Sequence record: NC_101837.1 | Source: a phage | Strand: one strand, 5' to 3' | DNA: 64,000 nt | In this document: positions 4,943 through 8,210 of the stretch, one piece after another | Numbering within the stretch: the stretch's first letter is position 1 | Layout: each line of letters opens with the position of its first letter | The notes under the pieces: model-generated | What the model saw: the letters and a program-made list of their open reading frames with translations, nothing else | The model's database searches: none | What the model was told of the DNA's origin: nothing | Translations under genes and position numbers: made by a program

Positions 4943-7540
4943 TTAAAGGTACAATCCACGGTATTGAGCATAAAGGCCCAGACCGCGAAGGATTTCGCCA
5001 GAGTGATAGCCCACCGGATCAGAAACTGCCCAGCAGCCGTTTAAAACATTATCCCCATTGATGAAGTGGTGCTTTTGCAGTAGCTTCATACAGGCTTCTA
5101 CAACAATGTCTATTTGAGGTATTGTCTCTGAATACCCGCACAGACCTAGCCAGCAGCAACCTGCAAGCCATTCACCTACCACCCACATCCTGTCCCCTCT
5201 GTCTTGATAAGAATATCCCCCAGAGGTGTTAAAGTCTGTAGGCAGATTTCCTGAATGAGATGACTGGAATCTGTTGAGGAACCATGCCCATTTCTGGCAG
5301 AACAGGAATAATCTTTCATCAACAGGTTCTTTATGTTTCTTGAGCTCATAGATTGTGCGGCACGCAGCAACAAAAGATCTTGACTGGAGCTTAGAGTTAT
5401 CTACCATCTCCCACCAACCAGTCAGCCCTTCATTACCTCTCTGCCATACATAACGCGAGGCAACTGGACCCTCTGTCTTAAATGTATTATTATACCAGAC
5501 TTGAGCGTCATACAGAAAGCCTATTGTATTTGACAATCTATGGCGATCTATGTTTTCTGCACCCATGCAGTATACTGCTGGGTATTGCATGCCAGGGTAG
5601 GGCCAATTTGGCTTTTCCTCTAAGAGATAGTTTTCCTTATCTATCACCTTTCCGGCAGGGAACACACCTGGTGTGTGCCTGTATGCACCTTGCTTGTAGT
5701 TTCTGACATAGCAATCACCAACCTTAGCGGTTGATTCTGTCTTGCTTGCCATCCATACGCTAAACCATATTAGATAAGCATCCCTATCTGCAATATAGAA
5801 CTGCGGCAGCGTGTTTACGCAGTACAGATCAAACAAGCCATTACCTATCTGCCTGTCGCTTAGGCTGAAATCTACAGAGGTGAGCCCCTTAGGATTAGCA
5901 AAGAAAGGTTTAATCTCTTCTTCTGTGTGATGAGGTTGTGTCGGATCTAGTTTGAAATCTCCTAGAGTAAGAGTTTCTGTTATCCATTGTCCATTAGTGG
6001 CATATAGATCAGCATACCATAACCACCTATCTTTGTCAAGAAATTTGACCCTTACCATCTCATCATCTGATCGATAAGTTACTGAGTTTAAAGAAATCTC
6101 TCTCCCAAAATTGAAAGTTACTTTACCTCTTGCTATATTACAACGGGTGAAGTTGTCAGAGTGGTTGTAAATGTCGGTATCATACTGCATACTAACACTA
6201 GCGCCACCGCTTACGACAATGTTTTCCTCTTTAGGTAAGAGATACGGATTACCGTCTTTACCAACTACCTCTACGAAATCAGTGACCTTGGCAACTATTT
6301 CTGTTACCTCTGCCCCTCCAAAAGGAACCCCTATCCTGTACTGTTTTTTGTTATTGTTGCCATCATTAAGGATGAAATGTGGCTGGAACAGAACCCCTTC
6401 TCCTCCGAAATTCATAACAATTTCAGCATCTCTGCCTATTTTGTATGTAGTCCCTTTTTGAATTATTTCGCAAGGCTGGCGTGCGTTCATTCTAAAATTG
6501 ATATACCCGTCACTGTCCCTGCTCATGGCAGGAACTGTTCCTGCAACAAGGCAAGTACCATCTGTAAACGGTGCCTTAATCAACGTGGTCTTCCTAAACA
6601 GTTTGTCGTAGGCGTTTATATCACTGAAATTAAGCAATTTGTTGTAAGACTGTTTAAACGCGGTGTAATACTTTTCCTCACCTGTCAAGGTGTAGAGTTG
6701 ATAACAAGCGTCACACCACATTTCTTCCCCGTCCAACTCTGGGGCCTGATTATCTGCAACCACGTTTATAGGATTTACAATTACAGGGGATCCTGCAGGT
6801 ATCACCGATCCGCCCTGCTCTTGAGGTAATCTTACACAATAGGTCACCTTGTGGCTGCCTGTAACACCCTTATCTTGTAATTGGATTGTGCCGAACTCTA
6901 CAGACGTATGACCACTGTCGGCTATGCTACCGTTAGCCCAATAGCGGTTACCATCCCATGCTATGTACCACTCAACCCACCAACTTAATCCGGATGTTGT
7001 CCAATCTGGGTTAGCATCTGTGCCACCGTAAACATCAGAGTCTACAGTGTTTCTTCCTAACACACCGTTATACGCTTGGAATGCCTTGTCAAGGTATTCT
7101 CCCCATGTCGGAGATCCAGCTGGGATTTTTCCTCTACCGTTGGTAAAAGACACCACCACATCTTTAAACCCACCATGTGATGGAACCCCATCTGTGGATA
7201 GGGGGTAGTGGGACAATCTTTGCATTTTACTTTCTACTGCATATGCACCCAGAAGATGGCTATTGTAAGCTTCCCAAGCATCTTTTGCCCTACCCAGATA
7301 GAAATCGCTTTTCGATGCCCTGTATGCTTCAATGTATCCCAGAATCAACACAGCTTGGGACTCATGCATTGCCCAATCATTATTTATCTTATCACCTGCC
7401 CACCCTGCAGCTATAAGACCATCAGGGTTTACTAGCTTATTTTGTGTAGGGGTGTTGGTAATACCTGTGTTGTTATCGAGGCACTTCCTGTGCCCCTCAA
7501 TCATCTGAAATACGTTATCAATGTTATGTTGAATACGCAT
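4943..7540 (-). CDS. putative tail fibre/tailspike (receptor-binding, possibly glycan-degrading) protein
   Basis: 865-aa ORF in tail-fibre block directly downstream of adaptor-like gene 7542..8210; no decisive motif. Confidence 0.5.
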   Translation of the reverse strand: MRIQHNIDNVFQMIEGHRKCLDNNTGITNTPTQNKLVNPDGLIAAGWAGDKINNDWAMHESQAVLILGYIEAYRASKSDFYLGRAKDAWEAYNSHLLGAYAVESKMQRLSHYPLSTDGVPSHGGFKDVVVSFTNGRGKIPAGSPTWGEYLDKAFQAYNGVLGRNTVDSDVYGGTDANPDWTTSGLSWWVEWYIAWDGNRYWANGSIADSGHTSVEFGTIQLQDKGVTGSHKVTYCVRLPQEQGGSVIPAGSPVIVNPINVVADNQAPELDGEEMWCDACYQLYTLTGEEKYYTAFKQSYNKLLNFSDINAYDKLFRKTTLIKAPFTDGTCLVAGTVPAMSRDSDGYINFRMNARQPCEIIQKGTTYKIGRDAEIVMNFGGEGVLFQPHFILNDGNNNKKQYRIGVPFGGAEVTEIVAKVTDFVEVVGKDGNPYLLPKEENIVVSGGASVSMQYDTDIYNHSDNFTRCNIARGKVTFNFGREISLNSVTYRSDDEMVRVKFLDKDRWLWYADLYATNGQWITETLTLGDFKLDPTQPHHTEEEIKPFFANPKGLTSVDFSLSDRQIGNGLFDLYCVNTLPQFYIADRDAYLIWFSVWMASKTESTAKVGDCYVRNYKQGAYRHTPGVFPAGKVIDKENYLLEEKPNWPYPGMQYPAVYCMGAENIDRHRLSNTIGFLYDAQVWYNNTFKTEGPVASRYVWQRGNEGLTGWWEMVDNSKLQSRSFVAACRTIYELKKHKEPVDERLFLFCQKWAWFLNRFQSSHSGNLPTDFNTSGGYSYQDRGDRMWVVGEWLAGCCWLGLCGYSETIPQIDIVVEACMKLLQKHHFINGDNVLNGCWAVSDPVGYHSGEILRGLGLYAQYRGLYL

Positions 7541-7541
7541 C

Positions 7542-8210
7542 TTAGATAGCTCCTGCGATAATCAGTGCCCCGTACCAAGTTAACCCGTTGTCGTAGGTTT
7601 CCAACTTGAAAATATCTGTTGCACCAGCTGTAAATGTTAGGATAGGATCTCTTCCGTAGGACCATTTAACATTACCAGGCCAATATACTTTGTTGCCGCC
7701 AGAGGTCTGAGTAATGCATACGGTTATAGTTCTCGCCACTCCTTCAAGACCTTCTGTTTGATTTTCAAAAGAGATTGTGGTATTTGAAGTTAGTCGAACC
7801 TTAAAGGTATCCGCAACTTCAAGATCCATATCAAGCTGACCACCGATAGATCCGTAATCAACTATTCTGCCAGAAGAAGTTGCAGCAAGCTCACCAAAAA
7901 CAGACCAGGCATTTGCAGACACACCCCCAGCACCCTCTACAGTAGAGTCTGGGAGGATTATTTTAGGATAATCCCCGTTCCACGTGTAGTAGCGCTTAGT
8001 TTCTGGGTCATAAGCAAAGTCCTTCTTGCTCTTAAGATAACCACCCTCTGTGAAATAGACTATCTTAGTAATGCTAAGATCGTTGACAACATCGTCAATC
8101 TTAGCCTTTCTTGTCCCATCAGTCTGGTTGACAACCAAGAAGTCATCACTCAAGACTGTTTCTGCATCTTCAAGATCTGGAATTGGTATTGTAGGATAAG
8201 CTACAGCCAT
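7542..8210 (-). CDS. tail fibre N-terminal adaptor-like protein
   Basis: N-terminus (DxxLVVxQxDGTRKAKIDDVV...EGGYL...DFAY) parallels N-terminus of 1095..4907; stop abuts start of 4943..7540. Confidence 0.5.
   Translation of the reverse strand: MAVAYPTIPIPDLEDAETVLSDDFLVVNQTDGTRKAKIDDVVNDLSITKIVYFTEGGYLKSKKDFAYDPETKRYYTWNGDYPKIILPDSTVEGAGGVSANAWSVFGELAATSSGRIVDYGSIGGQLDMDLEVADTFKVRLTSNTTISFENQTEGLEGVARTITVCITQTSGGNKVYWPGNVKWSYGRDPILTFTAGATDIFKLETYDNGLTWYGALIIAGAI

What the first reader, a model, noticed from the sequence alone, without database searches (positions are those of the whole stretch)
4943..8210. Tail-fibre N-terminal anchor domain exists both fused (1095..4907) and as a separate small gene preceding a large fibre gene
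The first roughly 100 residues of the 1270-aa fibre and of the 222-aa protein 7542..8210 share a clear pattern (LVV-Q-D-TR-KI-DVV...EGG-L...DFAY...W-G-P). The 222-aa gene ends 1 nt before the start of the 865-aa gene 4943..7540, which lacks this domain. This looks like modular exchange of receptor-binding modules on a common anchor: either a split fibre (adaptor plus distal module) or a recent fission or fusion. It is relevant to host-range determination.
Basis: seen in the sequence. Interest (0 to 1): 0.4.

Follow-up and report, generated by a model that had tools for sequence, protein, structure and literature searches.

The report
Phage fibre adaptor with glycosidase partner
In this rV5-like E. 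coli phage a small baseplate protein shares its N-terminal attachment domain with a long tail fibre, and ends in a widespread, unnamed domain that in 15 of 17 loci examined across many phage groups lies directly upstream of the same large sugar-cleaving-type protein, so the pair probably works as a portable adaptor-plus-enzyme unit.

Summary
The window is a Vequintavirus (100% identical to phage PMBT16). The three genes are rV5 gp43 (222 aa), gp42 (865 aa) and gp41 (1270 aa). The N-termini of gp43 and gp41 align at 38% identity over 99 residues (E=3e-18). Both pass Pfam Tail_spike_N, and gp42 lacks this domain.

- The split is not recent. gp43 is closer to its Seunavirus orthologue (51%) than to gp41 (38%).
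- A small protein followed by a large one is found in 15 of 17 loci examined, from myo-, sipho- and podoviruses, a prophage and metagenomes. The junctions run from an 8-nt overlap to a 12-nt gap.
- In the small proteins only the last ~105 residues are conserved. This "C-module" has no Pfam or PDB match. The N-terminal anchors differ by lineage (Tail_spike_N, T7 fibre N-terminus, PF08400 and others).

Best reading: gp43 is a baseplate-bound adaptor whose C-module carries the gp42 enzyme, and gp41 is a separate fibre on a paralogous anchor. No physical contact has been shown. Published transposon data complicate the model: the gp43 orthologue is essential on K-12, while the gp42 and gp41 orthologues tolerate insertions.

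I rate it a new variant of a known kind, of moderate interest.

The parts
7542..8210 (-). rV5 gp43 orthologue (222 aa): small virion protein, the proposed adaptor. It has an N-module (anchor) and a C-module.
   Evidence: ORF. Full-length match to PHROG 7760 'tail fiber protein', E=8e-120. 100% identical in many Vequintavirus records. rV5 gp43 was detected in virions (PMC3606486). The orthologue bas54_0025 is classed Essential in HIDEN-SEQ.
8076..8210 (-). N-peptide of gp43 (aa 1-45; pattern V..DL......D.hhV.Q.D.TRK), the first half of the shared anchor.
   Evidence: Aligned with gp41 aa 7-45. In phi92 this half occurs alone in gp140 and in the endosialidase gp143 (N-module HMM positions 1-52 and 9-49).
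7881..8075 (-). Tail_spike_N part of gp43 (aa 46-110), the second half of the shared anchor.
   Evidence: Pfam PF18668, 41 bits, aa 51-105. It aligns to CBA120 TSP1 residues 105-158 and to other solved tailspike heads. In phi92 this half occurs alone in gp151.
7551..7868 (-). C-module of gp43 (aa ~115-220): a widespread domain with no name, proposed as the docking end for gp42.
   Evidence: No Pfam or PDB sequence match. The whole-protein search gave 3413 representatives at E<=1e-3; in most of the best 150 the match is to this C-module, mostly at the extreme C-terminus of the hit. The module ends within 0-3 residues of the C-terminus in the 11 tabulated small proteins that precede a gp42-like gene (further cases).
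7538..7556 (-). gp43/gp42 junction: SD AGGAG (7554-7550) inside gp43, stop TAA (7544-7542), 1-nt spacer (7541), ATG (7540-7538).
   Evidence: Read directly from the sequence. The same tight junction, from an 8-nt overlap to a 12-nt gap, is seen in 10 other lineages. Translational coupling is inferred, not shown.
4943..7540 (-). rV5 gp42 orthologue (865 aa): six-hairpin (alpha/alpha)6 glycosidase-like protein with beta-sandwich domains, the proposed payload.
4922..4938 (-). GC-rich hairpin GGGGGC-tgttt-GCCCCC followed by TTT, between the gp42 stop and the gp41 SD/start.
   Evidence: Read from the sequence. It is not called as a terminator by the consensus scan. Its function is unknown.
1095..4907 (-). 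rV5 gp41 orthologue (1270 aa): long tail fibre carrying the paralogous anchor (aa 1-105, nt 4593-4907) and a C-terminal S74 intramolecular chaperone (aa 1149-1200, nt 1308-1463).
   Evidence: PHROG 6578, 1733 bits. Pfam Tail_spike_N and Peptidase_S74. Mosaic alleles share the N-terminal 330-1047 aa. The orthologue bas54_0027 tolerates insertions.
1068..1087 (-). Intrinsic-terminator-like hairpin with a T-run just after gp41.
   Evidence: Terminator scan: 8-bp stem with 7 GC pairs, followed by TTTTTG. It suggests gp43, gp42 and gp41 end one transcription unit; this is inferred.

Best explanation
gp43 and gp42 form a two-gene receptor-recognition cassette.

- **gp43, the adaptor.** Its N-module (N-peptide plus Tail_spike_N) fixes it to the baseplate or fibre network. 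Its C-terminal ~105-residue C-module holds gp42.
- **gp42, the payload.** It is a large six-hairpin glycosidase-like protein that would bind or cut a surface polysaccharide.
- **Expression.** The two genes are probably translationally coupled, because the SD lies inside gp43 and only one base separates stop and start.
- **gp41.** It is a separate long fibre that uses an old paralogue of the same anchor, so it probably plugs into an equivalent kind of socket.
- **Mobility.** The cassette travels between phage lineages. Each lineage fits the small protein with its own anchor and keeps the C-module and the large protein.

Shown: the homology of the anchors; the domain layout; the fold class of gp42 (from a model); the conserved pairing; virion presence (published); essentiality (published).

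Inferred: a physical gp43-gp42 contact; which module does the docking; enzymatic activity; the identity of the socket.
For: 1. **Anchor.** BLASTP E=3e-18. Pfam Tail_spike_N in both proteins. Homologous N-modules lie at the N-termini of 518-1481-aa proteins. In CBA120, tailspike head domains are the parts that dock on partner proteins (PMC8825819).

2. **Pairing.** A small protein ending in the C-module lies immediately upstream of a gp42-like protein in the following loci:
   - this window;
   - Seunavirus GAP31, Phapecoctavirus ESCO13 and phi92;
   - Rosemountvirus BP63, Kolesnikvirus phiEa104 and the podovirus GAP52;
   - the T7-like ISAO8, the jumbo phage SPN3US and the siphovirus PSA28;
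   - a Burkholderia prophage and four metagenome contigs.

   Of the 11 tabulated junctions, 7 overlap by 1-8 nt.

3. **Co-occurrence.** In 50,697 phage records, tblastn finds gp43-like sequence in 535 records and gp42-like sequence in 524. The genus counts are nearly the same: Escherichia 243/242, Salmonella 99/101, Vibrio 58/62, Campylobacter 23/23, Cronobacter 12/12.

4. **Swapped anchors.** Only the C-module is conserved among the small proteins. The N-terminal parts are:
   - Tail_spike_N (this window and GAP31);
   - a 40-aa remnant (phi92, ESCO13);
   - the T7 fibre N-domain (ISAO8, Pfam E=1e-8);
   - PF08400 (L018);
   - an SPRY-containing region (Burkholderia);
   - Mtd_N, DUF2793 and T4_gp9_10_N in other homologues.

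5. **ISAO8 as a test case.** The pair occupies the gp17 tail-fibre slot with no other fibre gene. The large protein has no T7 anchor, so it has no evident attachment other than the small protein.

6. **The same pattern with a different anchor.** The small protein of phiEa104 shares its first ~150 aa (31% identity) with the neighbouring 502-aa fibre. In GAP31, proteins 221 and 223 share the anchor at 47%.

8. **Virion presence.** gp41, gp42 and gp43 were all detected in rV5 virions (PMC3606486).
Against: - No direct evidence of a gp43-gp42 contact. No complex prediction could be run, and gene adjacency could reflect co-inheritance alone.
- HIDEN-SEQ on Bas54 classes the gp43 orthologue as Essential: 7 of 47 TA sites were hit, and there were 0 reads at all 47 sites after K-12 competition. 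The gp42 orthologue is hit at 94 of 189 sites. A protein that only holds a dispensable payload should itself be dispensable, so gp43 must have a further structural or receptor role.
- The C-module also sits at the extreme C-terminus of long fibres and occurs in tandem copies. That position is typical of receptor-binding tips.
- Two exceptions were found. In Roseobacter phage CRP-4 the C-module protein is followed by an unrelated 661-aa protein. One 412-aa protein has an internal C-module and no partner.
- The 2026 phi92 cryo-EM study could not place gp140, and does not mention gp141, in its fibre analysis.
- The gp42 model is only moderately confident (pLDDT 70.8, seven-sequence alignment). 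No catalytic residues were verified.
- The correlation between C-module and large-protein divergence (Mantel r=0.63) is driven by one close pair.
Confidence: 0.6

Rival explanations
1. gp43 is a complete short fibre or an essential baseplate protein in its own right, with an N-terminal anchor and a C-terminal receptor-binding or structural knob. gp42 is then a separately mounted virion enzyme. The two genes stay adjacent because they act on the same host glycan or are co-regulated, not because one carries the other.
For: - The C-module lies at the extreme C-terminus of many long fibre-like proteins and occurs in tandem copies, as receptor-binding tips do.
- The gp43 orthologue is essential on K-12 while the gp42 orthologue tolerates insertions.
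- In CRP-4 the C-module protein has a different downstream partner.
- The phi92 study predicted gp140 as a fibre-like trimer.
Against: - gp42-like proteins carry no recognisable anchor of their own.
- In T7-like ISAO8 the only anchor-bearing protein is the small one.
- Nearly one-to-one co-occurrence and abutting genes across more than ten lineages with swapped anchors are hard to explain by shared substrate alone.
- In contig L010 the small protein is only the C-module (107 aa) with no anchor, which fits a connector better than a fibre.
Confidence: 0.25
2. The arrangement is a recent fission of one long fibre gene, or a stage before fusion. In that case gp43 plus gp42 was, or will be, one polypeptide like gp41.
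For: - The genes are separated by a single base, and the small gene carries the same anchor as the fused fibre gp41.
- The PHROG 2871 profile has ~113 positions N-terminal to where gp42 starts, so some family members may have N-terminal extensions. This was not resolved.
Against: - The split is present in 15 loci spanning myo-, sipho- and podoviruses.
- All gp42-like proteins examined start at the same conserved N-terminus.
- None of 149 gp43-like representatives contains a gp42-like region.
- gp43 and its GAP31 orthologue share 51% identity in the anchor, against 38% for gp43 and gp41. The two anchor-coding DNAs share only an 18-nt patch.
Confidence: 0.04
3. Programmed recoding (a frameshift or readthrough) at the 1-nt junction produces a gp43-gp42 fusion protein alongside the separate products.
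For: gp42 is in the +1 frame relative to gp43 and starts 1 nt after its stop.
Against: - No slippery heptamer is visible at the junction, and a canonical SD plus ATG is present.
- The spacing varies between lineages (-8, -1, +1, +3 and +12 nt), so the frame relation is not conserved.
- rV5 proteomics reported the proteins separately.
Confidence: 0.03

Closest known systems
Branched tailspike complexes of Kuttervirus CBA120 (TSP1-4) and podovirus G7C (gp66/gp63.1)
   Same: Several receptor-binding proteins in one virion share a homologous N-terminal head. gp43 aa 52-107 aligns to TSP1 residues 105-158 and to TSP3/TSP4 heads, and both gp43 and gp41 pass Pfam Tail_spike_N. In CBA120 the heads dock on partner proteins (PMC8825819).
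   Different: In those systems the docking platforms are T4 gp10-like XD2/XD3 domains inside large tailspikes. No such domain was detected in this locus. The branching element proposed here is a separate 222-aa protein with an unrelated, unnamed C-module, and the payload is a six-hairpin protein rather than a beta-helix tailspike.
Adaptor-plus-tailspike systems of K1E / K1-5 / SP6-like podoviruses (gp37 adaptor carrying tailspikes; from my own knowledge and as summarised in PMC13450770)
   Same: A small virion-bound adaptor protein carries a separately encoded enzymatic receptor-binding protein. In T7-like ISAO8 the small protein has the T7 fibre N-terminal domain, as those adaptors do.
   Different: There is no sequence relation to the C-module or to gp42. 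The payloads in those systems are trimeric beta-helix or endosialidase spikes. The rV5-type cassette is found in all three tail morphotypes.
phi92 gp140/gp141 and PVP-SE1 gp51/gp50, the orthologous pair in the 'Swiss army knife' phages
   Same: The gene pair sits in the same position, directly after the sheath-initiator gene. gp141 is listed as a glycosidase (PMC5380687).
   Different: phi92 gp140 keeps only the 40-aa N-peptide and lacks the Tail_spike_N part. The N-peptide is shared with the endosialidase gp143, and the Tail_spike_N part is found in gp151. The 2026 cryo-EM study did not place gp140 and did not mention gp141, and it left fibre II unidentified.
Six-hairpin (alpha/alpha)6 glycoside hydrolases (GH105, GH88, GH8, GH48, GH76)
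   Different: Identity is only ~10%. The barrel is split by large beta-sandwich insertions (aa ~100-250 and 329-613). No family assignment, catalytic residues or substrate were established.

Membership tests
Pfam PF18668 Tail_spike_N (TSP1/Gp66 N-terminal domain) | Score at or above the curated gathering threshold (25 bits) against the family HMM | tested here: met
   gp43 scores 41 bits (aa 51-105) and gp41 scores 41 bits (aa 46-103). gp42 has no hit.
CBA120/G7C-type branched receptor-binding complex | A partner protein with T4 gp10-like XD2/XD3 docking domains encoded in the same phage | tested here: inconclusive
   Pfam scans of 18 neighbouring tail proteins found no gp9/gp10-type domain. 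However, the only gp9/gp10-type Pfam model seen in these scans was T4_gp9_10_N, so XD2/XD3 domains may go undetected, and the fibre genes beyond gp30 were not scanned.
CBA120/G7C-type branched receptor-binding complex | Physical binding of the N-terminal head to the partner | not testable with these tools
   This needs co-purification, analytical ultracentrifugation or cryo-EM. Only monomer structure prediction was available.
Adaptor-plus-payload split receptor-binding protein (K1-5/SP6 gp37 type, by function) | A small protein with a virion-binding N-terminus, encoded next to an anchor-less enzymatic protein, with both present in the virion | tested here: met
   The anchor is present in gp43 and absent from gp42. 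The genes are adjacent. Both proteins are in the rV5 virion proteome.
Adaptor-plus-payload split receptor-binding protein (K1-5/SP6 gp37 type, by function) | The payload is attached through the adaptor | not testable with these tools
   Only inferred, from conserved pairing in 15 of 17 loci and from the ISAO8 gene layout.
Six-hairpin (alpha/alpha)6 glycoside hydrolase fold | An (alpha/alpha)6 barrel that superposes on solved members | tested here: met
Six-hairpin (alpha/alpha)6 glycoside hydrolase fold | Conserved catalytic acid/base residues and demonstrated hydrolase activity | not tested
   Invariant acidic residues exist (for example E60, D270, E272, D277), but they were not mapped onto catalytic sites. 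Activity needs biochemistry.
Pfam PF13884 Peptidase_S74 (intramolecular chaperone of endosialidase-type fibres), for gp41 | Score at or above the gathering threshold (22 bits), located at the C-terminus | tested here: met
   52.1 bits, aa 1149-1200 of 1270.
PHROG families 7760 (gp43), 2871 (gp42) and 6578 (gp41) | A significant, near full-length HMM match | tested here: met
   E=7.8e-120 over 1-221 for gp43. For gp42, 1184 bits over 1-863, covering profile positions 114-1041 of 1456. For gp41, 1733 bits over 1-1270.

The most novel reading that the evidence does not exclude
The C-module would be a general 'socket' domain, not yet described, that lets one family of large six-hairpin glycan-acting proteins be mounted on any tail type. 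Phages move the socket-plus-enzyme cassette horizontally and only replace the N-terminal anchor. In rV5-like phages the socket protein has also become an essential hub of the fibre network. This would name components of the still unassigned fibres of phi92 and rV5 and would give a plug-and-play part for host-range engineering.
Probability: 0.4. Interest if true: 0.6.

Novelty: new variant of a known kind. Interest (0 to 1): 0.45.

Why it matters
rV5- and phi92-like phages are broad-host-range candidates for therapy. [quoted passage not shown] The 2026 phi92 cryo-EM study still could not identify fibre II or place gp140.

This analysis gives a concrete, testable wiring rule with three parts:
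- gp43/gp140 carries gp42/gp141 through its C-module.
- Proteins that share the N-peptide or Tail_spike_N module use equivalent sockets.
- The cassette is portable across tail morphotypes.

If confirmed, the C-module and the gp42 N-terminus would be a compact docking pair usable for swapping enzymatic receptor-binding modules. The essential-adaptor but dispensable-payload pattern would point to a structural hub in the baseplate periphery.

If not confirmed, the finding reduces to an ordinary case: two receptor-binding proteins sharing a known N-terminal domain.

Tried and rejected
- **Single-sequence AlphaFold2 of gp43** gave an unusable model (pLDDT 35). It cost one of the two structure jobs, so the C-module fold remains unknown.
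- **The word-indexed homologue search** returned very few hits for gp43 (4), the gp42 family (7) and the C-module profile (9). This limited alignment depth for structure prediction.
- **PDB sequence searches** found nothing with gp42 alone, a gp42-family profile or a C-module profile.
- **Pfam** has no model for the C-module or for gp42.
- **A Mantel test** of co-divergence between the C-module and the large protein (r=0.63, p~0.005) was dropped as evidence, because it is driven by the close phi92/ESCO13 pair and Spearman is not significant.
- **Schwarzer et al. 2012** (the phi92 genome paper) is not held in the library.
- **The RBPseg cryo-EM paper** on Bas54/Bas49 does not assign gp42 or gp43.
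- **The Alteromonas 'chaperone cap' paper** was checked after a structural hit and concerns unrelated small chaperones.
- **A recoding (frameshift) reading of the junction** was considered and rejected.
- **The BASEL label 'sialidase domain protein'** for gp43 could not be reproduced.
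Full report
**Identity of the window**

The region 900-9000 is 100% identical to Escherichia phage PMBT16 and 96-99.6% identical to about 100 other Vequintavirus genomes, including rV5. Comparison with the annotated rV5 and AlexBoehm records assigns the minus-strand genes as follows:

| Window coordinates | rV5 gene | Length / role |
|---|---|---|
| 1095-4907 | gp41 | 1270 aa |
| 4943-7540 | gp42 | 865 aa |
| 7542-8210 | gp43 | 222 aa |
| upstream of gp43 | gp44-gp49 | sheath initiator-like protein, central spike, hub, plug, tube initiator, tape measure |

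A strong terminator-like hairpin follows gp41 at 1068-1087.

**Check of the observation**

- The N-termini of gp43 and gp41 align over 99 residues at 38% identity, E=3e-18.
- Both proteins pass the Pfam gathering score for Tail_spike_N, PF18668.
- gp42 has no such domain. It gives no BLAST hit to either N-terminus. An HMM of the N-module finds only gp41 and gp43 among all ORFs of the window and of a 32-kb orthologous locus.
- The junction is ...AGGAGCTATC-TAA-G-ATG. The one-base spacing is as stated, and a Shine-Dalgarno sequence lies inside gp43. Translational coupling is an inference from this.

**Anatomy of gp43**

A HMMER search of 1.84 billion representative proteins shows that gp43 is made of two independent modules.

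- **The N-module (aa 1-110)** recurs at the N-termini of 518-1481-aa proteins. It is itself composite. In phi92 the first ~50 residues occur alone in gp140 and in the endosialidase gp143. The Tail_spike_N half occurs alone in gp151. By sequence, the Tail_spike_N half aligns to the head region of the solved tailspikes CBA120 TSP1, TSP3 and TSP4. In CBA120 these heads mediate docking onto partner proteins (PMC8825819).
- **The C-module (aa ~115-220)** accounts for most of the hits. The whole-protein search gave 3413 at E<=1e-3, and in the best 150 the match is mostly to this module, at the extreme C-terminus of proteins of 110-2000 aa. It matches no Pfam family and no PDB sequence.

Homologues combine the C-module with different N-terminal domains: Tail_spike_N, Mtd_N, DUF2793 and T4_gp9_10_N.

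**The key comparative result**

A small protein ending in the C-module lies directly upstream of a gp42-like protein (27-44% identical over the full length, always beginning at the same conserved N-terminus) in the loci below.

| Locus | Small protein | Large protein |
|---|---|---|
| This window | gp43 | gp42 |
| Seunavirus GAP31 | 221 | 222 |
| Phapecoctavirus ESCO13 | gp256 | gp255 |
| phi92 | gp140 | gp141 |
| Rosemountvirus BP63 | 28 | 29 |
| Kolesnikvirus phiEa104 | 720 | 730 |
| Podovirus GAP52 | 016 | 017 |
| T7-like ISAO8 | gp38 | gp39 |
| Jumbo phage SPN3US | gp143 | gp142 |
| Siphovirus PSA28 | 260 aa | 1000 aa |
| Burkholderia prophage (L009) | 473 aa | 911 aa |
| Metagenome contigs L010, L016, L018, L019 | 107-279 aa | 1171 and 1633 aa in L016 and L010; cut by the contig end in L018 and L019 |

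- The junctions range from an 8-nt overlap to a 12-nt gap.
- Across 50,697 phage records, gp43-like and gp42-like sequences occur in 535 and 524 records, with nearly identical genus counts.
- Two exceptions were seen. Roseobacter phage CRP-4 has a C-module protein followed by an unrelated 661-aa protein. One 412-aa protein has an internal C-module and no partner.
- Only the C-module is conserved in the small proteins. The anchor is lineage-specific.
- In ISAO8 the small protein carries the T7 tail-fibre N-terminal domain (Pfam E=1e-8). The pair fills the gp17 slot with no other fibre gene, so the large protein has no evident route into the virion other than through the small one.

**What gp42 is**

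- It has no Pfam or PDB sequence match.
- An AlphaFold2 model built on a seven-sequence alignment (pLDDT 70.8, pTM 0.54) has helical N- and C-terminal parts interrupted by beta-rich insertions.
- A conserved 82-residue fragment of the family hits GH88 and GH76 weakly by sequence. ISAO8 gp39 hits GH76 weakly.
- Published annotations agree: phi92 gp141 is listed as 'glycosidase' (PMC5380687). Podophages related to ISAO8 are described as having a contiguous tail fibre gene and a 'glycosidase superfamily protein' gene (PMC7857530), which probably correspond to this pair.
- gp42 is therefore not a fibre. One relative (P0157, 1633 aa) extends the gp42-like body with C-terminal fibre repeats. This suggests the family can sit in line within a fibre.

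**Age of the arrangement**

- gp43 is 51% identical in the anchor to its Seunavirus orthologue, but only 38% identical to gp41.
- The two anchor-coding DNAs share only an 18-nt patch.
- No gp43-like representative contains a gp42-like region.
- A recent fission or fusion is therefore not supported.
- The variable spacing and frame relation at the junction across lineages also argue against programmed recoding.
- gp41 itself shows mosaic alleles (617-1481 aa) that keep the first 330-1047 residues. Exchange of parts therefore occurs well downstream of the ~105-aa anchor, not at its boundary.

**External experimental data**

- rV5 virion proteomics detected gp41, gp42 and gp43 (PMC3606486).
- In the HIDEN-SEQ transposon map of Bas54 (bioRxiv 10.1101/2025.11.20.689424), locus tags were matched.

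| Bas54 gene | rV5 orthologue | TA sites hit | Call |
|---|---|---|---|
| bas54_0025 | gp43 | 7 of 47; no reads at any site after competition on K-12 | Essential |
| bas54_0026 | gp42 | 94 of 189 | Intermediate; tolerates insertions |
| bas54_0027 | gp41 | 154 of 238 | Intermediate; tolerates insertions |

Polar effects cannot explain the result, because insertions further down the same unit are tolerated. gp43 therefore has a role beyond holding gp42, most simply as a structural hub of the baseplate periphery or fibre network. This is the main tension with a pure adaptor model, and it is the main support for the rival view that gp43 is a functional unit on its own.

**Verdict**

The 'adaptor plus distal module' reading is the best-supported one (confidence about 0.6), but it rests on comparative inference rather than on a demonstrated contact.

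The logic resembles known split or branched receptor-binding systems (CBA120, G7C, K1-5/SP6). It uses a different and so far unnamed docking module, and a six-hairpin payload family with no solved structure.

I found no paper that describes the cross-lineage cassette. The BASEL authors and the 2026 phi92 cryo-EM study leave these components unassigned.

I rate it a new variant of a known kind, with moderate interest.

Noticed in passing
window 900-9000 and public records MG0656xx: About 18-23 GenBank records named 'Campylobacter phage' (host C. jejuni) are 97-100% identical to this E. coli rV5-like region. They probably represent mislabelled or contaminating coliphages.
   Followed up: no
just beyond window position 1; L001 (AlexBoehm) 6689-12096: rV5 gp37-gp40 form a siphovirus-style tail-tip set inside a myovirus: a gpJ-like protein with Ig_J and Phage_Tail_Tip domains, plus a DUF6950 protein. 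In the Bas54 transposon data three of the four are classed Non-essential and one Intermediate (80% of TA sites hit).
   Followed up: partly
window 4922-4938 (- strand): A GC-rich hairpin, GGGGGC-tgttt-GCCCCC followed by TTT, lies between the gp42 stop and the gp41 ribosome-binding site. The terminator scan does not call it. It may be an attenuator or an RNA-stability element.
   Followed up: partly
window 7542-8210: The BASEL annotation 'sialidase domain protein' for gp43 orthologues is not reproduced by Pfam, by PDB sequence searches or by profile searches.
   Followed up: yes
L001 2323-4395 (AlexBoehm bas56_0033); L003 12230-14293 (ESCO13 gp254); probably also phi92 gp142 (not scanned): A conserved 690-aa fibre matches the N4 non-contractile tail sheath protein domains (NCTSP_N plus a TIM barrel) with a Calx-beta N-terminus. 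In ESCO13 it lies directly after the gp140/gp141-type pair, and phi92 gp142 occupies the same position. By gene order its Bas54 counterpart should be bas54_0034, which is classed Essential; this tag was not checked against the Bas54 annotation. It may share a complex with the gp43-type protein.
   Followed up: no
window ~31000-32000: GC skew changes sign near 31-32 kb, where the coding strand switches. The HIDEN-SEQ authors report an insertion-free ~2-kb intergenic region between divergent gene blocks in Bas54. Whether it corresponds to this point was not checked.
   Followed up: no
L010 6001-10902 (metagenome protein P0157): A gp42-like protein of 1633 aa is extended at its C-terminus by tail-fibre repeats and a glycine-rich domain (Gly_rich_2). 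It is preceded by a 107-aa protein that is only the C-module.
   Followed up: partly
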